The translations under genes and the position numbers were made by a program. A stretch of 64,000 bases of DNA from Escherichia coli. GTDB lineage: Bacteria; Pseudomonadota; Gammaproteobacteria; Enterobacterales; Enterobacteriaceae. Each line of letters opens with the position of its first letter. The first letter of the stretch is position 1. The notes beneath the pieces were generated by a model that worked only from the letters and a program-made list of their open reading frames with translations, did no database searches and was not told the DNA's origin. This document shows positions 26,322 to 62,604 of the stretch, piece after piece. Where the stretch lies: assembly GCF_048403405.1 (NCBI RefSeq), contig NZ_CP183129.1. One strand, 5' to 3'.

Positions 26322-27917
<1,596 letters not shown>

Positions 27918-51578: not shown

Positions 51579-52859
51579 TTAATTTTTCATTGCTTCGTTA
51601 TGGGGCATGGTTGGGGCAAACTCGCTTAACTGTGTATTTAACAAAGCTACCTGTGCATTATTGTTTTCAGACATCCATTTTCCGTATACCTGAAATACCA
51701 TTTGCGCATCTGCATGGCCCATCTGGTTTGCTATAAATGCCGGGTTAGCACCAGCTGTCAGCGACCAGCAGGCATAAGTATGTCTCGACTGATATGATTT
51801 TCGATGGCGGAGTCCGGCACGTTTTATCGCTGCGTCCCACATCTGCCTTATTGAGTCAACGGTAAAATGGTCACCATAATTTTTTACTCTCGCTGACACT
51901 TCAGGTTGAAAAACAAAGGTGCATTTTTGTTTTTCTGTTCTGCCATACTCTCTGAGGTGAACATCAATGATATGCTCTTTGCTCAGTCTCGTTAATGTCA
52001 TCTGACTCCGGAGAGCGTCGATTGCTGGCTTAATAAGATGAATGACCCGATTGGTTCCCGCCTGTGTTTTTGGTACCGTGAAACGGTCTTTTGCTAAATT
52101 TCTCCTGATCATCATTGTTCCATTTTTCAGATCTATGTCCTCCCATCCAAGTGCACACAGCTCACCAGGGCGAACGCCAGTATAAACAGAAACACACCAT
52201 AAATTTTTGGCTTGCTGATTTCTGCACGCATCGATAAGACGGATGAATTCCTCCCGCGAAAGAGGATCCGGAATGGTTCTTGATTCCTTTAATGGCGAGA
52301 TCCCCTTAAACGGATTATCTGCCAGGTAACCGTTATCAACACCAAACTGGAACACGGCGTTAAGATTTGTCATGTAATTATTTACAGTTACAGCCGATCT
52401 CCCTGGTTGTGTAACAATATAGTTACTTTTGGGGATCTGGTATCCAGTCAGTAGCTCTTTACGAACCTCCAGTAATTTTTCTTTATTAATCGATGAGGCA
52501 AGATTTTTTTCACCGATTATGCTCAGGATATTTTTGATGACGGCACGGTATGTGTTGAGTGATGTTTTGGCGACTTCAGTTTCTTTCAGTGCCAGAAATT
52601 TTTCAGCCAGTTCTTTTATGGTTAAATCTTGTCGGGCCTCACCAAATTTTTCCAGATTGCGTGAGGAGGGAAACTGTTTTGCATAGTCGAAAACACCAGT
52701 TTTTATTGCGTAACAAACAGAGGAGCGTAGTTCACCTGCAACGCGCCTGTTTTTTGCTGTGTCAGGAACCCCCAGATTTTCCCTGACTCTTACGCCTTTA
52801 TAAACAAACCAGATACGTAATTTCCCTCCATGGTTTTCCACGCCTGTCGGATATTTCAT
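51579..52859 (-). CDS. phage tyrosine integrase (lambda Int family)
   Basis: About 426-aa protein with an R...HxxR...Y-type catalytic C-terminus (GLRHRKSYQSRHTYA region). Start placed at the Met with the better upstream purine-rich spacing; the supplied ORF start at 52874 is the alternative. Confidence 0.85.
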   Translation of the reverse strand: MKYPTGVENHGGKLRIWFVYKGVRVRENLGVPDTAKNRRVAGELRSSVCYAIKTGVFDYAKQFPSSRNLEKFGEARQDLTIKELAEKFLALKETEVAKTSLNTYRAVIKNILSIIGEKNLASSINKEKLLEVRKELLTGYQIPKSNYIVTQPGRSAVTVNNYMTNLNAVFQFGVDNGYLADNPFKGISPLKESRTIPDPLSREEFIRLIDACRNQQAKNLWCVSVYTGVRPGELCALGWEDIDLKNGTMMIRRNLAKDRFTVPKTQAGTNRVIHLIKPAIDALRSQMTLTRLSKEHIIDVHLREYGRTEKQKCTFVFQPEVSARVKNYGDHFTVDSIRQMWDAAIKRAGLRHRKSYQSRHTYACWSLTAGANPAFIANQMGHADAQMVFQVYGKWMSENNNAQVALLNTQLSEFAPTMPHNEAMKN

Positions 52860-52893
52860 TTCAACTTCTCTCATTAGTTAGTGTGGCTTTTAG

Positions 52894-53145
52894 TCAAGTA
52901 AGATGACGTCTTGGTCTCGCTGATGCCTGGCGCTCAATCCAGCGATCAATTTCTTCCAGGTTGTAAAAGCATGGACTGTTATCCCATGGCATACCGTCAT
53001 GAGCGACATGCTTATATTCCCTTCCTTCCATAAACGATTTTTCCCGGGCCTTTTTTAACGTACCTTTTTTTATTCCTTTCAGCGCAATTAACTGCTCTTC
53101 GGATACCCATTTGCCGGGAGAGACAATCATGATTACTTCGCTCAT
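52894..53145 (-). CDS. excisionase-like small DNA-binding protein
   Basis: 83-aa basic protein directly upstream of the integrase in the same orientation; annotated by size and position. Confidence 0.6.
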   Translation of the reverse strand: MSEVIMIVSPGKWVSEEQLIALKGIKKGTLKKAREKSFMEGREYKHVAHDGMPWDNSPCFYNLEEIDRWIERQASARPRRHLT

Positions 53146-53217: not shown

Positions 53218-55689
53218 TTAAGAATCAGCCTGACTCGGGATCAGTTTTTGCCAGATAACTGAAACGTATTTTGCCTGGTAACGGGCGTCATCAAGTGCAT
53301 TATGGCGCTCACCTTCGAATGGAATAGCCGTTCTGGCATCGAAGTCTATGGCTTTCCCCAGCTCAACGATTGTGCGTACATCGCGATCGTTGTAGTAACG
53401 CCACGGGCAGGGGATCCCCTGCCGTTCGTATGAACGGCGCAAAATCGTGTTGTCGAAGTTGGCTCCATTTCCCCAAACCTGAACAAAAAATTCACCGGAG
53501 TTTTCGTCGATAAATTCCCGCAATTGTAACAGTGCATCATCTAACGGGATTTCATCGGTCATAATGGCAGATTGCGCTTCGCGTGATTGCTTAAGCCACC
53601 ATTTAATGGTGTCCCGATCAATGACTCCGCCAGCAGTTTCCAGATCGATAGTCTTACTAAATTCCGGTCCCATATCTCCGGTTTGCGGATCGAAAAATAT
53701 TGCACCTATTGAGATGATCGGGGCATCAGGATTTTTTCCCATGGTTTCAAGGTCGATCATTAGATGGTCACACGTCCTGCTGGTGGATGTGATTTCGTGA
53801 TGACCGTTCACCTTAATTGGGTGATCTGCCGTCTCGCCAGTTTCATTATCGCTATTGTGATGCTGATTGCCGCCAGTGTTCTCCTTGTGTGGATGTTCAG
53901 CGCCTTCCATTTCCTCCGGATCATCTTCCTGAACTTCAACCTGATACTCTTCATCGAATGTTTCTTGGTATGTTGCGTCGCCCATCACCGCGCCACAATC
54001 AGGGCAGTTGCCGCCGCCGGTCTGACCGCAGGCGGTGCAGGCTTTTTCCACTTCCTGTTGCGCCACTGGTTCAGGCTGTTTCGTTTCTGGCTCGTTTTGT
54101 AACGCATTTGGACTGTTTTGTTCCGCTTTTTGGTAGTTCCGTTCCGATTCATGCTGGTTCTGGTTCACAGAATCGCGGGTCTGGATCCCCTTAACCCATT
54201 TCGGATCATTCGGGTCACTAATCCCTTCAACAAATTCACCACGTGATGCAGCAAGCAACTTATCGGCGTCAGGCTGGCTGATATTGGCTGCCTGCATAAT
54301 TTTGTTTACTTCGTCAGCGGTAACTTTTATCGGCTCTGGTTGTTCTGAATCTTCAGCGGTATCTACATTTTGCGGTAAGCCCGTGTATGTGCCATTTTTT
54401 CGGGCAAAATATTCTTCTTTTGTGATTTCAGTGGCGCCAGCAGCCAGTGCCTTATCCAGACCAGAAAGTTTGTTTGCGCGACCGTATTTTTCTCCGTCCT
54501 TATCTGCGAAGAGGAAATAGAACGGCCCCTCACGCTCTACAGATGGTTCAGTTTCCGGCGCGGTTTCATTTTTTGGGATATCAGATACCTCAGTTTCCAC
54601 TGCATCAGTTTGTGTTTCTGATGACTGGAGAACAGCAACAGTGCCCAGGTCTGTTTCTTCATTCTCAAACACGCCCTTTGTCGTCAGGTATTCGCAGATA
54701 TATTTGTTCAGTGCTACGGGATCTTTGTGAATGTCGATCGGACGCTCACGGACAAGGCCAAAAATAGTTTGGCGGTCGTAGCGAAGGGCATCAGGCTGTT
54801 TGCGTATTGATGCCGAGATACGCTTCCAGTCTTCGCGGTCGTTGTCGATAACTTCTTTTTTTGCCCAGCGATGGATGCTGCCGTCAATGTTTCCGGCATC
54901 CACATCACCAGGCCAGAGAGCGTAGGCCAGTTCGTCATCCAGTGTTTTCCATGTCTGCTTGTATTCGCGATGAATGGCAGCAATGACCGAGCTGATTTTT
55001 CCTGTTGAATTTTCAGTGTACTGTTGATTGGCTCTGGCGCGGGCGAGATCAACAACAGACGTGTATTTTCCGGTTTCCTTGCGTTCACCTTCGCGACGTT
55101 TTTTCCAGATGCGCATCTCTGCCTGAATTTCGGGCCATTTAGCACCAGGAATACATTTATGCTTAACCCACCCAATGGCGTGCAACTTAAGCTCCGGATA
55201 CATGGCGTTAACTTCTGGCATTTTCATCAACGCTTCAACGATATGTCCGTCGAATGTTGCCATGTCTTCCTGCAACAATTCCTGTGCGCTAATAACCATA
55301 TCAACGGTGATGTTTTCACATGTGTCGAACTTAACCATGACAGCGTTCTGTACTTCAGGGGCCAGCTTGTCAAAAGTGACGTTCATCGGATCGGATTCAG
55401 TCTCAACCGGGACAAAAGAAGCAGACTCCTCATCCCAGCGGTTTTCCTGCATATATTCAGCATCCCATGAATCGAGGGCAGGGCGGGGTATGCCAGGTTT
55501 ATCCTCGCAGACAATAAATTTATAAGCGCAGTCCTGAGCAGCCGGATAATGTTCCAGGAATTGCCAGTGAAATTTTGCTCGAGCACGGCGTTCGTCGCCA
55601 GCTTCAATGGCTGTGGCTACAGCCACAGCGCCTTCTTCCCTTGTTGCCAGTTCGTCAGGAATAGCGGCGCAAATAAAGACTTTACTCAT
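53218..55689 (-). CDS. prophage exonuclease (exodeoxyribonuclease VIII-like; C-terminal DEDDh/DnaQ-type 3'-5' exonuclease domain)
   Basis: 823-aa protein; the C-terminal part has Exo I (MIDLETMG), Exo II (GANFD) and Exo III (HNALDDA) motifs; a central acidic low-complexity tract with a CxxC-x7-CxxC knuckle (CTACGQTGGGNCPDC). It sits where K-12 Qin has the truncated ydfE. Confidence 0.75.
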   Translation of the reverse strand: MSKVFICAAIPDELATREEGAVAVATAIEAGDERRARAKFHWQFLEHYPAAQDCAYKFIVCEDKPGIPRPALDSWDAEYMQENRWDEESASFVPVETESDPMNVTFDKLAPEVQNAVMVKFDTCENITVDMVISAQELLQEDMATFDGHIVEALMKMPEVNAMYPELKLHAIGWVKHKCIPGAKWPEIQAEMRIWKKRREGERKETGKYTSVVDLARARANQQYTENSTGKISSVIAAIHREYKQTWKTLDDELAYALWPGDVDAGNIDGSIHRWAKKEVIDNDREDWKRISASIRKQPDALRYDRQTIFGLVRERPIDIHKDPVALNKYICEYLTTKGVFENEETDLGTVAVLQSSETQTDAVETEVSDIPKNETAPETEPSVEREGPFYFLFADKDGEKYGRANKLSGLDKALAAGATEITKEEYFARKNGTYTGLPQNVDTAEDSEQPEPIKVTADEVNKIMQAANISQPDADKLLAASRGEFVEGISDPNDPKWVKGIQTRDSVNQNQHESERNYQKAEQNSPNALQNEPETKQPEPVAQQEVEKACTACGQTGGGNCPDCGAVMGDATYQETFDEEYQVEVQEDDPEEMEGAEHPHKENTGGNQHHNSDNETGETADHPIKVNGHHEITSTSRTCDHLMIDLETMGKNPDAPIISIGAIFFDPQTGDMGPEFSKTIDLETAGGVIDRDTIKWWLKQSREAQSAIMTDEIPLDDALLQLREFIDENSGEFFVQVWGNGANFDNTILRRSYERQGIPCPWRYYNDRDVRTIVELGKAIDFDARTAIPFEGERHNALDDARYQAKYVSVIWQKLIPSQADS

Positions 55690-55782: not shown

Positions 55783-55974
55783 TTAAAGACCTGCCGGGAT
55801 TTCGATATTATCCTGGTGAATAACTTTATCGACCGGGTAACAGTTACCGGGAATTTTCTGTTCGGTTGCTGCAGTCATACACTCCTGCATTGTCCTGTGA
55901 ACACTGACTGCAATATCAACTGGCACTCCGGAAACAAGAAAAACTGTCAGAACAAGCGCAAATGCTGAATTCAT
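55783..55974 (-). CDS. ydfD: prophage lysis protein YdfD
   Basis: 63-aa protein MNSAFALVLTVFLVSGVPVDIAVSVHRTMQECMTAATEQKIPGNCYPVDKVIHQDNIEIPAGL, close to my memory of K-12 YdfD; N-terminal hydrophobic segment. Confidence 0.85.
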   Translation of the reverse strand: MNSAFALVLTVFLVSGVPVDIAVSVHRTMQECMTAATEQKIPGNCYPVDKVIHQDNIEIPAGL

Positions 55975-56159
55975 TGTGCACATCCTTTTGGCATCAGACG
56001 TAAACGAGCCAGCATTGAAACAATGCATATTTTATTTAATAGCTCCCGTTCTTGTTTTCTCTTGTTAATGGCATCTTCAGTAAATACAGGGTTACTGATA
56101 GTGACACCAATTTCAAAACAACCTTCAGACGTATTAACGTTTGGTAATAACGTTTTCAT
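55971..56159 (-). CDS. dicB: cell-division inhibitor DicB
   Basis: 62-aa protein MKTLLPNVNTSEGCFEIGVTISNPVFTEDAINKRKQERELLNKICIVSMLARLRLMPKGCAQ, matching my memory of DicB; 4-nt overlap with ydfD. Confidence 0.9.
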   Translation of the reverse strand: MKTLLPNVNTSEGCFEIGVTISNPVFTEDAINKRKQERELLNKICIVSMLARLRLMPKGCAQ

Positions 56160-56333: not shown

Positions 56334-56386
56334 CGGCGGCAGAGCAGTCACGGAGTAAAACTGATACCGCCAAACGTCACCAGAAA
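56334..56386 (-). ncRNA. dicF: DicF small regulatory RNA
   Basis: Minus-strand sequence TTTCTGGTGACGTTTGGCGGTATCAGTTTTACTCCGTGACTGCTCTGCCGCC matches my memory of the 53-nt DicF; the exact 3' end is not determinable from sequence. Confidence 0.85.
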
Positions 56387-56645: not shown

Positions 56646-57221
56646 TTAAGGATTCATTAAGCAATGTCGCAACCACCAATAAATCCGCTTAAGAACATGA
56701 AAATTGATTACTGGTATAAAGCGCTTACAGTTGTTGGCGCTGCGTTGTTTGTCTTTAATGGAACGTCTTTTTTTGACAGATATCCCGTTGTTCCATTGGG
56801 TTTTTTGTCCTCCGGCATCTTTTTTATTGGTTTGGGGGAGTGGATTAATCACCCTCTCAAAGTGAGATTTATTGGTCCTGGAGTTTGGACTCGTGGATAT
56901 AATCGTTCTTCGTGCGCACTCGGTATCATCTTCGACATACTTGGTTGTTTCCTGATTGTTACAGGAGTCGTCAAGTTCTTCTGATGTAAAACCGCAAATG
57001 GGGCACGTAACGGGAATTTTGAAAAGCGTTTCTCCGGGTTCCAGAACAAAATTTTCTGCGGTCTGATTTTGCTTCTCATATTTGTGCTCCGCGTCATTGT
57101 GAGAGCACATTCTTATTCTGAGTGCCTGTTTAAACTCACTGAAGCTGAGAGCTTCTTCGCCTTCGGCAAGGCCTTCGAAGTATTCTTCGTAAGCCTTTTC
57201 CATGATTGTGTCGAAATCCAT
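56646..57221 (-). CDS. hypothetical early-left protein (ydfB/ydfC region)
   Basis: Start MDFDTIMEKAYEEYFEGL at 57221 with AGGTGAG RBS, 1 nt after the ydfA stop; contains a CPxC knuckle (PVTCPICGF). The C-terminal two-thirds is low-complexity N/K/R-rich and overlaps the plus-strand ORF, so the true 3' end is uncertain. Confidence 0.45.
   Translation of the reverse strand: MDFDTIMEKAYEEYFEGLAEGEEALSFSEFKQALRIRMCSHNDAEHKYEKQNQTAENFVLEPGETLFKIPVTCPICGFTSEELDDSCNNQETTKYVEDDTECARRTIISTSPNSRTNKSHFERVINPLPQTNKKDAGGQKTQWNNGISVKKRRSIKDKQRSANNCKRFIPVINFHVLKRIYWWLRHCLMNP
56664..56984 (+). CDS. candidate 106-aa three-helix membrane protein, antisense to the early-left operon
   Basis: ORF with three hydrophobic segments and basic residues in the loops, AAGGA about 11 nt upstream of the ATG, G-rich first codon positions. 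It is exactly codon-antisense to the 3' part of the minus-strand ORF 56646..57221, so only one of the two is likely to be real. Confidence 0.4.
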   Translation: MSQPPINPLKNMKIDYWYKALTVVGAALFVFNGTSFFDRYPVVPLGFLSSGIFFIGLGEWINHPLKVRFIGPGVWTRGYNRSSCALGIIFDILGCFLIVTGVVKFF

Positions 57222-57222
57222 A

Positions 57223-57378
57223 TCACTCACCTGAGTTTCTTTCCAGCCAGCGACGGGCACCATTTTCGGTTTTAAACGTTTTGCTTTTGGTATACGTCAT
57301 CGCGGTGAACGTGCCGTCCTGGTTGGGGAACACGCCACATACCAGAGATTCGCTGTTGCCAAGATCGATAGTATCCAT
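57223..57378 (-). CDS. ydfA: small prophage protein YdfA
   Basis: 51-aa protein MDTIDLGNSESLVCGVFPNQDGTFTAMTYTKSKTFKTENGARRWLERNSGE, matching my memory of K-12 YdfA; first gene after the left operator. Confidence 0.8.
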   Translation of the reverse strand: MDTIDLGNSESLVCGVFPNQDGTFTAMTYTKSKTFKTENGARRWLERNSGE

Positions 57379-57546: not shown

Positions 57547-57954
57547 TTATTTTATTGATTTATTTTTACGCGCTTTAAGCATTTCTTCGAAGAGTTTGTT
57601 GAAGTTTTCTACTCTTGCGCGCATTTCAGACAGCAAGGCTTCCTGCTCGGAAGATGGAAGAGCATCGAATAATTCGATCAATTCTTTGTGGTTGGGAGTT
57701 AGCTCTGTTTCCACATGAAGTTCTTGTGCAGGCACTGGTGCCTTGTCTTCGTCACCAAACATTAGCCATGTAGGTGAGCACTTCAGAGCATCCGCTAAAG
57801 CAAACAATCGTTTTCCGACTGGCTGGGTTTCGTCTCTTTCCCATTGTGAAATTGTGACGTGAGCAACTCCAGCGAGGCGCGCAGCTTCTCGTTGTGTTAA
57901 GCGTAATTCTTTTCGTCGCGCCAGAACTCGCTGGCCTAGGGTTCTTGTATCCAT
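57547..57954 (-). CDS. dicA: DicA-like HTH_XRE immunity repressor (cI functional analogue)
   Basis: 135-aa protein with XRE-type HTH (LRLTQREAARLAGVAHVTISQWERDE); similar to, but clearly diverged from, my remembered K-12 DicA; divergent from the Cro-like gene. Confidence 0.85.
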   Translation of the reverse strand: MDTRTLGQRVLARRKELRLTQREAARLAGVAHVTISQWERDETQPVGKRLFALADALKCSPTWLMFGDEDKAPVPAQELHVETELTPNHKELIELFDALPSSEQEALLSEMRARVENFNKLFEEMLKARKNKSIK

Positions 57955-58031: not shown

Positions 58032-58262
58032 TTGATGCTTAAAGTTGACGCAATTACTTTTTTTGGCAGCAAAACAAAGCTTGCCAATGCCGCAGGAGTG
58101 AGACTGGCAAGTGTTGCTGCTTGGGGGATACTGGTTCCTGAAGGTCGCGCGATGCGTCTACAGGAGGCATCTGGCGGGGAGCTTCAGTATGATCCCAAAG
58201 TTTATGACGAATATCGTAAGACGAAGCGGGCGGGGCGGTTGAACAATGAAAATCACTCCTGA
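58032..58262 (+). CDS. dicC: DicC-like Cro-type repressor
   Basis: 76-aa protein; its C-terminal half (EGRAMRLQEASGGELQYDPKVYDEYRKTKRAGRLNNENHS) matches my memory of DicC. Confidence 0.85.
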   Translation: MMLKVDAITFFGSKTKLANAAGVRLASVAAWGILVPEGRAMRLQEASGGELQYDPKVYDEYRKTKRAGRLNNENHS

Positions 58263-60155: not shown

Positions 60156-60688
60156 TGTTAGGTATTTTAGACGTTACTAGATTAAAAAGCATTAGTTCAG
60201 GAGTGAATTGACATTCTCATTTTTCATGGCACAGGGTAGATCTGGCGTGGTTGTCCGCTTTGTGCCAACAGCGGACGTTACTAACGAAACTGTGAGTTAA
60301 AAACGGGAGCTGGTCACCTCCATCCCGCGAAATGGAATTCAAAAATGCCCTCATGTACGGTACTTCTAGTCTGATGTGAGCATTTTCGTGGATTTTTTCG
60401 AGCCACTCCAACGAATGATTACATTCAGTTTCGGGCACTAAAACGTCATAAATCCGCAAGTTGAGGAGTAGCGATCAGCCAATTGGTTAAAAAACAGCTT
60501 TAATTCCCTTTTTCAAGCAGGCTCCTTGTCGCACGTCTGGTGCATCCAATTCATTTCAGTTACCCTGATGCCATACTGGCACGGACTAGCTCTCTTAATT
60601 GGCGCTGGTTTGTTAACCTTGTCCGCTGTCGGGTCTTTGTAAGTTGTAATTCCTAAACTAGCATAATTTTATTATAAGGCCTCTTACT

Positions 60689-61714
60689 ATGCACATTTTA
60701 TCTGTTTCAAAAAAGGAAGTTGGAAGAGCTGGGGATAGATTAGTTTCTCAGTTTGGTACAGGTGAAAAATATAAAGAGGAAGATGTACAAATTCTTCATG
60801 AGTGGAGGATGTTGCATTTATATCCTTTAAGTAAAATACAATTTTATATGGAAAGAGAGGCTATTTCCTTAAACAAAAATGCGTTACTATCCTCTAGAAT
60901 TAAGAGGATGCCTTCCATTGTTACTAAGCTTTCTAGATTTCCTGATATGAAGTTAAATAAGATGCAGGATCTTGGTGGGTGCCGGGCTATTTTAAATAAT
61001 CTGGATCAAGTGTATGATTTAGTTAATAAAATAAAATCATCTAAATTCTCACATGAACTAGTTAGAATGGATGATTACATGATAGACGTGAAAGATTCTG
61101 GTTATAGAAGCTTTCATATGGTCTATTCATTCCAAAATAAAAAATTTCCATCTTTAAATGGGTTGCGCATTGAAATGCAAATAAGAACAGCTATTCAACA
61201 TAGCTGGGCTACAGCAGTTGAAATGGTTGGTTTGTTTCGAAAGGAATCATTGAAATCTGGTTTTGGTGATGCAAGATGGCTTAGGTTTTTTGAATTGGTA
61301 TCAGAGCTTTTTTATAAACTTGAGTATGAAAAAGAACCATCTGGGAGTTATATAAAAATATCAGAAGAATTAAGTTATTTATCCGTCGAGTTGAATGTTT
61401 TCGATATATTAGCTGCTTACAATGCCGTAGTTAGCCATATTGAGGGTAGCAAAAAATATGATAAAGGACTTTGCATAATTGTTGTTGATACCATAAAGCG
61501 GAATATAAATATAAAGAGCTTCGAAAATCACAATCATGCGAAGGCGGCAGAAGCTTATGTCGAGTCTGAAAAATACTGCGCGGAAAATAAAGGCTGTGAA
61601 GTGGCTATGGTTTCTGTTAGTTCAATTAGTGAATTAAAAAATGCATATCCTGCTTACTTTTTAGATACGAAAACTTTTTTAAATTATCTCAGTAGGTATG
61701 TTTTTATAAAATAA
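60689..61714 (+). CDS. RelA/SpoT-domain nucleotide pyrophosphokinase (toxSAS-like; candidate fused CapRel-type toxin-antitoxin defence protein)
   Basis: 341-aa protein with the four synthetase motifs in order: RIKRMPSIVTK, DLGGCRAIL, YRSFHMVY, EMQIRTAIQHSWATAVE. No HD hydrolase, TGS or ACT domains; about 130 C-terminal residues unassigned. The gene is markedly AT-rich compared with its flanks. Confidence 0.8.
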   Translation: MHILSVSKKEVGRAGDRLVSQFGTGEKYKEEDVQILHEWRMLHLYPLSKIQFYMEREAISLNKNALLSSRIKRMPSIVTKLSRFPDMKLNKMQDLGGCRAILNNLDQVYDLVNKIKSSKFSHELVRMDDYMIDVKDSGYRSFHMVYSFQNKKFPSLNGLRIEMQIRTAIQHSWATAVEMVGLFRKESLKSGFGDARWLRFFELVSELFYKLEYEKEPSGSYIKISEELSYLSVELNVFDILAAYNAVVSHIEGSKKYDKGLCIIVVDTIKRNINIKSFENHNHAKAAEAYVESEKYCAENKGCEVAMVSVSSISELKNAYPAYFLDTKTFLNYLSRYVFIK

Positions 61715-62448
61715 AAAATGTTATCTGGAGTGGTCTGAATTCTACTAACTTAGTTTTTTCAGACCGCTTCTGACCACAATGGCCTGTGAGGTTCTGCTGC
61801 TAGTCAACATAAAATAACAAAGCCGGCAGGTGGTGGTTGTTGTAAAGTTATTCAATGACATTCATGGAGGCTTAAGCGAATTATTTGTCCCTGGTCGGTA
61901 TGGTGGCAACAGCTTGTTGCGAGAATTTGGCTAATTTGGACTGACTTCCGCTCCTTGCTCAAAGCGGACTAGAAGGTTAGCTTGTGTCGGACTTTGCGTA
62001 TTAAAAGAAGTGCTGGTGGTGACTAGTGGTTGAGCCCCATTTCCACAGAAAAAATCAGAGAAACTATACCCAATAGTTGTATTGAATCACTGACGAGACA
62101 GCCTCATATTCATCAGGACTGGTGTACGTCCAATACAGGAGGTTGTGGTGCTGGTTCTCAAATGTGCGCTGGCTATTACGGCTGTAATGGCGATTTATTG
62201 TCTTGCTATTGTTCTTATGGATCGCCTTTCTGACTGATTTCATATTGGCGAGGTAAAGGTAGTTAAGTAGAATGGCTGCGGGTGCTTGAGGCTATCTGCC
62301 TCGGGCATGAACACCAAAGGCAGATAGAGAAAAGCCCCAGTTAACATTACGCGTCCTGCAAGACGCTTAACATTAATCTGAGGCCAATTTCATGCTAGAC
62401 ACATGTAGGTTAGCCTCTTACGTGCCGGAAGGCAAGGAGAAGCAGGCT

Positions 62449-62604
62449 ATGAAGCAGCAAAAGGCGATGTTAATCGCCCTGATCGTCATCTGTTTAACCG
62501 TCATAGTGACGGCACTGGTAACGAGGAAAGACCTCTGCGAGGTACGAATCCGAACCGGCCAGACGGAGGTCGCTGTCTTCACAGCTTACGAACCTGAGGA
62601 GTAA
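62449..62604 (+). CDS. hokD: Hok/Gef-family membrane toxin
   Basis: 51-aa protein MKQQKAMLIALIVICLTVIVTALVTRKDLCEVRIRTGQTEVAVFTAYEPEE, matching my memory of HokD; AAGGAGA RBS; upstream fold-back elements typical of hok mRNAs. No relB/relE ORFs are present upstream. Confidence 0.9.
   Translation: MKQQKAMLIALIVICLTVIVTALVTRKDLCEVRIRTGQTEVAVFTAYEPEE

What the first reader, a model, noticed from the sequence alone, without database searches (positions are those of the whole stretch)
53218..55689. 823-aa prophage exonuclease with a DnaQ-type C-terminal domain and no adjacent annealase
The C-terminal domain has DEDDh motifs (DLE, NFD, HNALDDA), which is a 3'-5' exonuclease fold rather than the lambda-Exo/RecE type nuclease. 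The middle is an acidic low-complexity linker with a CxxC-x7-CxxC knuckle. No recT/bet-like gene is adjacent. K-12 Qin retains only a fragment (ydfE) here, so the intact architecture is informative.
Basis: partly seen in the sequence, partly recalled or inferred. Interest (0 to 1): 0.45.

Follow-up and report, generated by a model that had tools for sequence, protein, structure and literature searches.

The report
RecE-like prophage protein with 3'-5' exonuclease
This is a real, intact and very common E. coli prophage gene already annotated as "exonuclease": it keeps a RecE-like front and middle but carries a T4-DexA-type 3'-to-5' exonuclease at its end, has no partner annealing protein, and its cellular role has not been tested.

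Summary
Window 53218-55689 (-) is an intact 823-codon ORF, the last gene of the dicA-ydfA-DicF-dicB-ydfD early-left operon of a Qin-type prophage at rspB, directly upstream of xis and int.

- **C-terminus:** residues 642-813 match Pfam PF16473 (Rv2179c-like DEDDh) at E 2.4e-67. All five catalytic residues are present and conserved in homologues. The only solved relative by sequence is T4 DexA, a DNA 3'-5' exonuclease.
- **Middle:** residues 262-627 align with RecE, roughly 80% identical over 469-627. The RecE N-terminal domain and the PD-(D/E)XK nuclease are absent.
- **K-12:** only the first 767 nt remain (ydfE), cut by IS2.
- **Annealase:** none in the window, and none in the complete phage HannyBb, which carries the same gene.

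The gene is ordinary in the sense of being known. It is full-length in 3536 of 5426 complete E. coli genomes, annotated in RefSeq, and covered by PHROG 2082 and Pfam YdfE_N/YdfE_C.

The added value is that it belongs to a modular family. One scaffold carries interchangeable heads:
- PD-(D/E)XK, followed by RecT in 5 of 5 loci.
- DEDDh, with no annealase in 0 of 9 loci.
- A Rad52-like annealase, mislabelled "exonuclease".

The most likely role is one-component 3'-end DNA processing during lytic growth. This is untested.

The parts
53218..55689 (-). Complete 823-aa ORF (with stop codon): exonuclease of the Qin-type prophage, the intact form of K-12 ydfE
   Evidence: ORF list. 100% identical to RefSeq WP_059330971.1 'exonuclease'. 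PHROG 2082 matches 1-822 of 823.
54985..55689 (-). Module A, residues 1-235: YdfE-type N-terminal scaffold. The model shows two sub-domains, 1-95 (alpha/beta) and 105-205 (helical).
54923..55689 (-). The part retained in E. coli K-12 (ydfE pseudogene); in K-12 IS2 follows directly
   Evidence: Query nt 1-767 are 99.9% identical in K-12 and then meet an IS2 transposase.
54610..54984 (-). Module B, residues 236-360: helical core (YdfE_C) shared by most family members, including RecE-type proteins
   Evidence: Local phmmer map of representatives. PF27432 YdfE_C named. BLASTP alignment with RecE starts at residue 262. pLDDT above 90 for 245-340.
53770..54609 (-). Residues 361-640: acidic linker. 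It includes a short conserved GPFYF...GRANK...EIT.EEY.ARK element (about 388-435) and a RecE-like stretch (469-627, roughly 80% identical to RecE).
   Evidence: BLASTP against Rac-type RecE. NCBIfam RecE model hits only 453-623. Composition. GPF motif recurs in the family.
53823..54267 (-). Patch of DNA-level similarity to recE (86.6% identity), a mosaic junction typical of lambdoid phages
   Evidence: Megablast hit H29: query nt 1423-1867 against an annotated recE.
53995..54039 (-). CxxC-x7-CxxC knuckle, residues 551-565; specific to this lineage
   Evidence: Regex on the translation. Present in 1 of 65 long representatives; RecE has AFNAC...CPDC, only three Cys.
53251..53766 (-). DEDDh 3'-5' exonuclease domain, residues 642-813: D646, E648, D746, H796, D801
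   Evidence: Pfam PF16473 E 2.4e-67. A profile of homologues hits T4 DexA 8kel at E 3.7e-15 and nothing else significant. Catalytic residues conserved. dN/dS 0.18.
52894..53145 (-). Excisionase gene directly downstream (72-nt gap)
   Evidence: Pfam DUF1233 putative excisionase, E 1.6e-31.
51579..52874 (-). Tyrosine integrase at the prophage end next to rspB
   Evidence: Pfam Arm-DNA-bind_2 and Phage_integrase. Same layout in RefSeq.
55783..55974 (-). ydfD (DUF1482 lysis protein) directly upstream, same strand
   Evidence: Pfam DUF1482, E 4.4e-25. Coordinates by register with the RefSeq annotation.
55971..56159 (-). dicB (cell-division inhibitor), same operon
   Evidence: Pfam DicB E 9.6e-40 on residues 36-97 of the longer ORF. 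RefSeq annotation.
56334..56385 (-). DicF sRNA, same operon
   Evidence: Rfam RF00039, 72.5 bits against a gathering score of 48.
57547..57954 (-). dicA-type repressor gene at the head of the leftward operon. dicC (cro-like) lies divergently at 58032-58262 (+).
   Evidence: Pfam HTH_3 and P22_Cro. K-12 layout.

Best explanation
The gene encodes a three-part phage protein of the RecE family whose nuclease head is a different enzyme from RecE's.

**Shown:**
- The N-terminal scaffold (YdfE_N plus YdfE_C, about 340 residues) and an acidic linker are homologous to the non-catalytic part of RecE-type proteins.
- The C-terminal 180 residues are a DEDDh (DnaQ-like) 3'-5' exonuclease. Its nearest characterised relative is phage T4 DexA.
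- The gene is the last gene of the DicA-controlled early-left operon, directly before xis-int.
- It has no cognate annealase.
- It is under purifying selection.
- It is carried by a plaque-forming phage as well as by cryptic prophages.

**Inferred:**
- When the operon is derepressed (prophage induction or infection), the protein acts on DNA rather than RNA and removes nucleotides from 3' ends of linear or nicked DNA.
- The scaffold does whatever it does for RecE: tethering the head to DNA ends or to a host factor.
- It works as a one-component end-processing function. It either feeds host recombination (these phages lack anti-RecBCD genes and are enriched in Chi sites) or exposes 5' overhangs that can anneal without a dedicated annealase.
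- It is not half of a two-component exonuclease/annealase recombinase.
For: **Identity of the head.**
- PF16473 scores E 2.4e-67.
- A profile of 32 homologues hits only T4 DexA (PDB 8kel, 'Exodeoxyribonuclease') at E 3.7e-15.
- D646, E648, D746, H796 and D801 are present and conserved in 64-69 of 70 aligned sequences.

**Scaffold shared with RecE.**
- BLASTP aligns residues 262-627 with RecE 295-609 at E 2e-60.
- The N-terminus weakly hits RecE of HK225 and of Gifsy-1 and Gifsy-2.

**The scaffold is a DNA-recombination module.** Among representatives that share it:
- Heads include PD-(D/E)XK, DEDDh and a domain whose AF2 model (pLDDT 84.8) hits human RAD52 in the top 26 places (E 3e-6, probability 1.0).
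- Pfam Rad52_Rad22 is the best, sub-threshold hit for that third head in 10 of 16 members.

**The head predicts the partner.**
- All 5 PD-(D/E)XK loci have a RecT gene immediately downstream (with 57, 110, 111, 112).
- None of 9 DEDDh loci has an annealase; xis and/or int follows directly (window).

**A stand-alone homologue sits in a Rec module.** The eps34 homologue gp34 (56% identical) lies in the order recombination protein gp36, SSB gp35, DEDDh gp34, Abc2 gp33. PMC12315714 also judges it a legitimate Rec-module member.

**Expression context.** No sigma-70-like promoter and no terminator were found between ydfD and the gene on the minus strand.

**Selection.** dN/dS against an O157 copy is 0.25 overall and 0.15-0.40 for every module.

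**Active phage.** HannyBb carries a 99.4% identical protein in the same layout. It has no annotated or detectable annealase, Gam or Abc2 and has 7 Chi octamers against 1.3 expected.
Against: - No biochemical or genetic test of this protein or of any scaffold-DEDDh fusion was found.
- 3'-5' DnaQ-type exonucleases usually inhibit rather than promote homologous recombination. PMC12315714 says so and declines to count int-proximal DnaQ genes as Rec-module members.
- The Pfam family is named after an RNase (Rv2179c), so an RNA substrate is not excluded.
- The head-partner rule rests on only 14 loci.
- A stand-alone E. coli DexA homologue (EcD) has been reported to act as an anti-T4 defence (PMC12153337). 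That suggests a different role.
Confidence: 0.5

Rival explanations
1. Defence or superinfection-exclusion nuclease. The DexA-like head selectively degrades incoming, possibly base-modified, phage DNA, as proposed for the stand-alone E. coli DexA homologue EcD ('HREX'). The gene is kept in cryptic prophages because it benefits the host.
For: - PMC12153337 reports that plasmid-borne EcD digests T4 DNA, spares unmodified DNA and protects against T4.
- The gene is intact in 3536 of 5426 complete E. coli genomes, often within decayed prophages such as this one.
- It is under purifying selection.
- Its operon neighbour DicB has a reported anti-phage role, according to the title of PMC6832061.
Against: - EcD is a different, stand-alone protein: by its cloning primers it starts MIDTET and ends TIPETYD. 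It is not among the 120 closest homologues of this domain.
- The DexA residue W152, proposed to recognise 5hmC, aligns with Tyr766 here and is variable among homologues.
- PADLOC gives only a generic Cas-associated DEDDh match, E 1.7e-5.
- The gene lies in an operon that DicA represses in lysogens, with no promoter of its own detected.
- This reading does not explain fusion of the same scaffold to RecE-type nuclease and Rad52-type annealase heads.
Confidence: 0.17
2. Host-DNA scavenging or host-takeover nuclease. Like T4 DexA in one of its two described roles, it degrades host DNA fragments to nucleotides during lytic growth.
For: - T4 DexA is the nearest characterised relative. [quoted passage not shown]
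- In mEp460 the stand-alone homologue lies in an early-left operon that also encodes a deoxyribonucleoside 5'-monophosphate phosphatase.
Against: - Established knowledge, not tested here: temperate lambdoid phages are not known to degrade host DNA wholesale.
- No endonuclease partner is present in the operon.
- This reading does not explain the RecE scaffold.
Confidence: 0.1
3. 3'-5' exoribonuclease. The head acts on RNA, as Rv2179c does, for example trimming operon transcripts (DicF is processed from the same transcript) or host RNAs.
For: - The Pfam family is named for the M. tuberculosis exoribonuclease Rv2179c.
- RefSeq names many copies '3'-5' exoribonuclease domain-containing protein'.
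- DicF lies in the same operon.
Against: - By sequence the only solved relative detected is the DNA exonuclease DexA; no other solved protein gave a significant match.
- Every alternative head on the same scaffold acts on DNA.
- The stand-alone homologue sits between SSB and Abc2 in eps34.
- K-12 makes DicF without an intact copy of this gene.
Confidence: 0.1
4. Decaying mosaic relic. An accidental recombination joined a RecE remnant to a stand-alone DEDDh gene, and the product has no function.
For: - A patch of 86.6% DNA identity to recE marks a recombination junction.
- Copies in K-12 (IS2-truncated) and ETEC1746 (frameshifted) are broken.
Against: - dN/dS is below 0.4 in every module.
- The architecture recurs in about 10 separate 50%-identity clusters with two different N-terminal modules.
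- It is intact in 65% of complete E. coli genomes and in plaque-forming phages.
Confidence: 0.03

Closest known systems
Exonuclease VIII (RecE) of the Rac prophage and its relatives (NCBIfam NF007259; Pfam PF06630 plus PF12684)
   Same: - Same genomic slot: late in the early-left operon, upstream of xis-int.
- Similar size.
- Homologous middle region: residues 262-627 align with RecE 295-609, roughly 80% identical over 469-627. This includes the acidic linker and the Cys-containing element.
- The shared module B (YdfE_C) is present.
   Different: - No PD-(D/E)XK nuclease domain and no PF06630 N-terminal domain.
- Scores 286 bits against the RecE equivalog cut-off of 1269.
- Opposite predicted polarity: 3'-5' instead of 5'-3'.
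- No RecT gene downstream, whereas 5 of 5 PD-(D/E)XK relatives have one.
Phage T4 exonuclease A (DexA; PDB 8kel and 8ken)
   Same: - Only solved-structure relative of the C-terminal domain by sequence: E 1.5e-6 with the single sequence and 3.7e-15 with a profile.
- DEDDh catalytic residues.
- Phage-encoded.
   Different: - DexA is a stand-alone 227-aa protein with extra loops.
- Identity is low and the printed alignment stops at DexA residue 162.
- DexA W152 aligns with Tyr766 here.
- The temperature-dependent dimer/tetramer switch and 5hmC recognition described in PMC12153337 were not testable here.
Stand-alone prophage and phage 'Rv2179c-like' DEDDh exonucleases of about 180-190 aa (for example mEp460 gp26, epsilon34 gp34; Pfam PF16473)
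   Same: - 56-90% identical to the C-terminal domain.
- Also in early-left operons: mEp460 gp26 lies directly upstream of xis.
- epsilon34 gp34 lies inside the Rec module between SSB and Abc2.
   Different: They lack the 640-residue RecE-like scaffold and linker.
Scaffold-annealase fusions (PHROG 2489, about 700-790 aa, annotated 'exonuclease'); possibly the 'RecE-2' proteins of PMC12315714
   Same: - Same YdfE_N and YdfE_C scaffold.
- Same conserved GPFY...GRANK element.
- Same operon position.
   Different: - The C-terminal head is a Rad52-fold annealase rather than a nuclease.
- They are followed by a Sipho_Gp157 gene.
- Identification with 'RecE-2' is my inference; the paper's supplement was not available.
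EcD / HREX, a stand-alone E. coli DexA homologue reported as anti-T4 defence (PMC12153337)
   Same: An E. coli-encoded DexA-family DEDDh exonuclease.
   Different: - A different protein: stand-alone, with different termini by its primers.
- Not among the close homologues of this domain.
- No defence test exists for the 823-aa protein.

Membership tests
DEDDh (DnaQ-like) 3'-5' exonuclease superfamily / Pfam PF16473 Rv2179c-like | Profile match above the curated gathering score | tested here: met
   226.5 bits against a cut-off of 27, E 2.4e-67, residues 642-813 covering profile positions 2-177 of 177.
DEDDh (DnaQ-like) 3'-5' exonuclease superfamily / Pfam PF16473 Rv2179c-like | Exo I D-x-E, Exo II D, Exo III H-x4-D catalytic residues | tested here: met
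   D646, E648, D746, H796 and D801 are present and conserved in 64-69 of 70 aligned sequences.
DEDDh (DnaQ-like) 3'-5' exonuclease superfamily / Pfam PF16473 Rv2179c-like | Metal-dependent 3'-5' exonuclease activity, and the substrate (DNA or RNA) | not testable with these tools
   Needs purified protein. The nearest characterised relative, T4 DexA, acts on DNA. The family namesake acts on RNA.
T4 DexA family | Significant sequence similarity to DexA | tested here: met
   8kel_A at E 1.5e-6 (single sequence) and E 3.7e-15 (profile).
T4 DexA family | Residues proposed for 5hmC recognition (DexA W152, D169) | tested here: inconclusive
   W152 aligns with Y766; this position is W in 23 and Y in 19 of 70 homologues. 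D169 lies beyond the aligned stretch.
Exonuclease VIII / RecE (NCBIfam NF007259 equivalog) | Whole-protein score above the curated cut-off | tested here: not met
   286 bits against a cut-off of 1269. Only residues 453-623 match.
Exonuclease VIII / RecE (NCBIfam NF007259 equivalog) | C-terminal PD-(D/E)XK nuclease domain (PF12684/DUF3799) | tested here: not met
   Absent here. Present in a Rac-type RecE scanned the same way.
Exonuclease VIII / RecE (NCBIfam NF007259 equivalog) | N-terminal Exonuc_VIII domain (PF06630) | tested here: not met
   Absent. It is replaced by the YdfE_N-type module.
Exonuclease VIII / RecE (NCBIfam NF007259 equivalog) | Homologous non-catalytic middle region | tested here: met
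   BLASTP E 2e-60 over residues 262-627.
Two-component phage recombinase (exonuclease plus single-strand annealing protein, 'SynExo') | A cognate annealase gene adjacent to, or in the same phage as, the exonuclease | tested here: not met
   - No annealase in the flanks.
- tblastn with six annealase types against the window and complete HannyBb gave no hit below E 0.05.
- None of 9 DEDDh-head loci has one.
Two-component phage recombinase (exonuclease plus single-strand annealing protein, 'SynExo') | 5'-3' dsDNA exonuclease that leaves 3' overhangs | tested here: not met
   The nuclease fold is DEDDh, which is 3'-5' by established knowledge of the superfamily. Polarity itself was not assayed.
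YdfE family (Pfam PF27430 YdfE_N and PF27432 YdfE_C) | Matches to both family models | tested here: met
   These models are not in the local Pfam copy. They are on record for proteins 95-99% identical over residues 1-358 and are named. K-12 ydfE is the truncated allele.
HREX / EcD anti-phage exonuclease | Close similarity to EcD, and stand-alone architecture | tested here: not met
   EcD's termini (MIDTET... and ...TIPETYD) were not found among the 120 closest homologues. This protein is a 823-aa fusion.
HREX / EcD anti-phage exonuclease | Protection against hmC phages; selective cleavage of modified DNA | not testable with these tools
   Needs plaque assays and nuclease assays. PADLOC gives only a generic DEDDh hit.

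The most novel reading that the evidence does not exclude
The RecE-family scaffold may be a general adaptor that delivers interchangeable DNA-end enzymes: a 5'-3' nuclease, a 3'-5' nuclease or a Rad52-type annealase. On that reading the DEDDh version, present in about two thirds of E. coli genomes, would be a previously unrecognised annealase-independent recombination or end-joining function of opposite polarity. It would resect 3' ends so that 5' overhangs anneal, much as full-length RecE boosts linear-linear recombination. This would explain how the many 'Rec-minus' lambdoid phages process DNA ends, and it could be useful for in-vivo cloning.
Probability: 0.12. Interest if true: 0.6.

Novelty: already known. 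Interest (0 to 1): 0.3.

Why it matters
As an object it adds little: the gene is annotated, very common and already covered by family models.

Its value is as a natural experiment on RecE. The non-catalytic two thirds of RecE have no known function, although they enhance linear-linear recombineering. Here the same scaffold is attached to a nuclease of opposite polarity and works without RecT.

Comparing the three head types on one scaffold could show what the scaffold does. It could also show whether the many lambdoid phages that lack a recognisable recombination module really lack all phage-encoded DNA-end processing.

A practical correction also follows. The PHROG 2489 and 7838 'exonucleases' appear to be Rad52-fold annealases.

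Tried and rejected
- **Retrieving EcD.** I tried to find the characterised E. coli DexA homologue (HAK9828821.1) from its cloning primers.
  - The forward primer core found 26 viral contigs, none with the right C-terminus.
  - The reverse primer core found nothing.
  - No match appeared among 120 homologues.
  - So I could not measure how close EcD is to this domain.
- **Zinc knuckle.** Rejected as a functional clue. It is present in only 1 of 65 long representatives and is incomplete in RecE.
- **Defence-system membership.** PADLOC gives only a generic Cas-associated DEDDh match.
- **Own promoter.** The sigma-70 scan found none on the minus strand between ydfD and the gene. This is a weak negative.
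- **Sequence evidence for Rad52 in the annealase-type relatives.** Both phmmer and a profile against PDB failed. Only the fold search and sub-threshold Pfam hits showed it.
- **Literature.** Searches for ydfE, for Rv2179c, and for RecE with DEDDh found no functional study of this protein.
- **Supplement.** The supplement of PMC12315714, which may list these proteins, is not held.
Full report
**1. The observation**

Window 53218-55689 on the minus strand is an uninterrupted ATG-started ORF of 823 codons. A GAGG ribosome-binding site lies about 10 nt upstream.
- D646-L-E648.
- N744-F-D746.
- H796-N-A-L-D-D801-A.
- C551-x2-C-x7-C-x2-C565.

Residues 506-640 are strongly acidic: 21% D+E against 5% K+R.

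The surroundings are those of a Qin-type prophage inserted next to rspB. The order is speG, ynfB, ynfA, rspA, rspB, then integrase (51579-52874), excisionase (52894-53145), this gene, ydfD, dicB, DicF RNA (56334-56385), a 205-aa ORF, ydfA and the dicA repressor. The divergent dicC/cro, ydaT-like and O-like genes follow.

An identical gene in the same layout is annotated in RefSeq as 'exonuclease', WP_059330971.1.

In E. coli K-12 the first 767 nt are 99.9% identical and then run into IS2. The K-12 'ydfE' is therefore the truncated allele.

**2. What the three parts are**

*The C-terminal domain.* It matches Pfam PF16473 (Rv2179c-like 3'-5' exoribonuclease domain) at E 2.4e-67, far above the curated cut-off.
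- Against all solved structures by sequence, only T4 DexA (PDB 8kel/8ken, 'Exodeoxyribonuclease') gave a significant match. The E-value is 1.5e-6 with the single sequence and 3.7e-15 with a profile of 32 homologues.
- The five catalytic residues are conserved in 64-69 of 70 aligned sequences.

*The middle.* It is not an anonymous linker. BLASTP against a Rac-type RecE aligns residues 262-627 with RecE 295-609 (E 2e-60). The alignment rises to roughly 80% identity over 469-627 and includes the acidic tract and the Cys element.
- There is even a patch of 86.6% DNA identity to recE, a typical lambdoid mosaic junction.
- The protein nevertheless fails the RecE equivalog model: 286 bits against 1269.
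- It lacks both RecE Pfam domains, the PF06630 N-terminus and the PF12684 PD-(D/E)XK nuclease. A true RecE scanned the same way has both.

*The knuckle.* The four-Cys knuckle occurs in only 1 of 65 long family representatives, and RecE has three of the four Cys. I do not treat it as a functional clue.

*The N-terminus.* Residues 1-360 have no hit in the local Pfam copy. In the large protein database, near-identical proteins carry the newer families PF27430 and PF27432, named YdfE_N and YdfE_C.
- An AlphaFold2 model built on 20 diverse homologues is locally confident (pLDDT 85). It shows three sub-domains (1-95, 105-205 and 245-340) joined by a disordered stretch.

**3. How common and how conserved**

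- The gene is full-length (at least 80% covered) in 3536 of 5426 complete E. coli genomes, with up to 10 related places per genome.
- It is present in isolated temperate phages such as HannyBb (99.4% identical protein). Its N-terminal region is 93-99% identical in Tritos, PhiR42_1, Evi and mEp460_ev081, and 87% identical in the PPompW prophages.
- It constitutes PHROG 2082.
- Against an O157:H7 copy, dN/dS is 0.25 overall and 0.15-0.40 in each module.
- It is therefore a functional gene, not debris, although individual copies are broken: K-12 by IS2 and ETEC1746 by a frameshift.

**4. The absent annealase**

- The flanking genes are ydfD and dicB upstream and xis and int downstream.
- I ran tblastn against the whole 64-kb window and against the complete 45-kb HannyBb genome. 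Queries were lambda Bet, P22 Erf, two RecT proteins, the eps34 recombination protein gp36, a Rad52-like domain, Gam, Abc2, NinB and SSB. No hit fell below E 0.05.
- HannyBb's PHROG-style annotation lists no annealase either.
- HannyBb carries 7 Chi octamers against about 1.3 expected. This fits the class of lambdoid phages without a Rec module that PMC12315714 proposes rely on host RecBCD.

**5. The family is modular, and this is the most informative result**

An exhaustive search with residues 1-358 found only 169 clusters at 50% identity. I mapped modules on the long representatives with Pfam and local phmmer. The family has these parts:
- Either a YdfE-type or a PF06630-type N-terminal module.
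- A core module B, present in most representatives.
- An optional acidic linker.
- One of several C-terminal heads.

The heads are as follows:
- PD-(D/E)XK, as in RecE.
- DEDDh, in about 10 clusters, combined with either N-terminal type.
- A domain of about 200 residues that no library names.
- A fourth, unidentified head (phrog_26058).

The unnamed head carries the motif GTSIN..YM.MRATE.FGP.G.GW...KKSLTDAIKKALS.LGFSADV.
- Its best Pfam hit in 10 of 16 members is Rad52_Rad22, just below threshold.
- Its AlphaFold2 model (pLDDT 84.8) hits human RAD52 in the top 26 places of a PDB fold search (E 3e-6, probability 1.0).
- These proteins are labelled 'exonuclease' in PHROGs 2489 and 7838. They are evidently scaffold-annealase fusions.

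One scaffold is thus joined to three different DNA-recombination activities. That argues the scaffold belongs to DNA-end metabolism and that the DEDDh head acts on DNA.

**6. The head predicts the neighbour**

- All five loci with a PD-(D/E)XK head have a RecT-family gene immediately downstream (with 57, 110, 111, 112).
- None of nine loci with a DEDDh head has any annealase. xis and/or int follows directly. The loci are the window, HannyBb, vB_EcoS-813R8, O157 FRIK804, ETEC1746 and four representatives from other clusters.
- By my own arithmetic, a 5-of-5 against 0-of-9 split has a Fisher exact probability of about 0.0005. The loci are few and not fully independent.
- The annealase-headed relatives are followed by a Sipho_Gp157 gene.

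**7. Stand-alone relatives**

The DEDDh domain also exists alone, at about 180-190 aa and 56-90% identity, in many enterobacterial prophages and phages.
- In mEp460 it lies directly upstream of xis with no annealase nearby.
- In Salmonella phage epsilon34 it is packed inside the canonical recombination module, in the order recombination protein gp36, SSB gp35, DEDDh gp34, Abc2 gp33.
- PMC12315714 independently calls the epsilon34 DnaQ gene a legitimate Rec-module member. The same paper notes that DnaQ-type genes near int are of uncertain role and that such nucleases usually inhibit recombination.

**8. Mechanism**

*Shown:* an intact, conserved DEDDh active site; a RecE-derived scaffold; position as the last gene of the DicA-repressed leftward operon, with no detected promoter or terminator separating it from ydfD; and no annealase.

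*Inferred:*
- On derepression the protein removes nucleotides from DNA 3' ends.
- The scaffold plays the same unknown targeting role as in RecE.
- The enzyme works alone. It either conditions ends for host recombination or exposes 5' overhangs for annealase-independent annealing.

I give this 0.5.

*Rivals:*
- An EcD/HREX-like defence nuclease (0.17), based on PMC12153337. It is weakened because EcD is a different stand-alone protein, by the repressed operon context, and by the scaffold's other fusions.
- DexA-like host-DNA scavenging (0.10).
- An RNase role suggested by the family name (0.10).
- A functionless relic (0.03), contradicted by the conservation data.

**9. Novelty and verdict**

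The object is already known at the level of annotation: RefSeq, PHROGs, Pfam families named after ydfE, and a 2025 survey that mentions DnaQ-type nucleases next to int.

No functional study of the fusion was found.

The modest interest lies in three things: the head-swap relation to RecE, the strict head-partner rule, and the mislabelled annealase fusions. Together they make the unexplained RecE scaffold experimentally approachable.

Interest 0.3.

Noticed in passing
Related proteins P0275, P0251, P0259, P0281, P0285 and others; loci L041 5001-7226 and L042 5001-7361: About 20 of the 150 listed representative clusters share this protein's YdfE_N/YdfE_C scaffold but end in a Rad52-fold annealase domain. 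The AF2 model hits human RAD52 at E 3e-6, and Pfam Rad52_Rad22 is just below threshold. PHROGs 2489 and 7838 label them 'exonuclease', which looks wrong. They are followed by a Sipho_Gp157 gene.
   Followed up: yes
window 60689-61714 (+), inside the low-GC stretch at about 60500-62000: A 341-aa ORF in a 35% GC island of the prophage matches the PADLOC candidate defence family PDC-S33 at E 5e-119. The near-identical RefSeq strain has a 'P-loop ATPase, Sll1717 family' gene at the corresponding place.
   Followed up: partly
window 56646-57263 (-): A 205-aa ORF with a CxxC motif lies between ydfA and DicF, where K-12 has ydfB and ydfC. It has no Pfam family and matches only PHROG 35040 (unknown function). 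The same ORF is present in phage HannyBb.
   Followed up: partly
window 53779-53786 (+), inside the exonuclease gene; HannyBb (L033) positions 26330, 35321, 35447, 35505, 41639 (+) and 35911, 35963 (-): A Chi octamer (GCTGGTGG) lies within the gene. The complete phage HannyBb has 7 Chi sites against about 1.3 expected, like the Chi-rich, Rec-module-less lambdoid phages described in PMC12315714.
   Followed up: partly
window 56334-56385 (-) and 62280-62454 (+): Rfam finds DicF (72.5 bits) in the same operon as the exonuclease. It also finds a sok antitoxin RNA (117 bits) further into the prophage, next to the hok-type region.
   Followed up: no
Related protein P0246 (702 aa), locus L039 5001-7109: A fourth type of family member has the same scaffold but a C-terminal region of about 300 aa with no recognisable domain (PHROG 26058, unknown function). 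It is followed directly by xis-int, like the DEDDh type.
   Followed up: no
Alignment A1 (65 long family representatives): One representative carries a Pfam RecT domain within the same polypeptide (E 2.3e-9). This is either a RecE-RecT fusion or a gene-calling or frameshift artefact. I did not identify which member it is.
   Followed up: no
window 53995-54039 (-) compared with RecE in L003 6588-9239: The CxxC-x7-CxxC element is complete only in this protein's own cluster. The homologous RecE stretch reads AFNAC...CPDC, with three Cys. Zinc binding, if any, is a recent acquisition or is being lost.
   Followed up: yes
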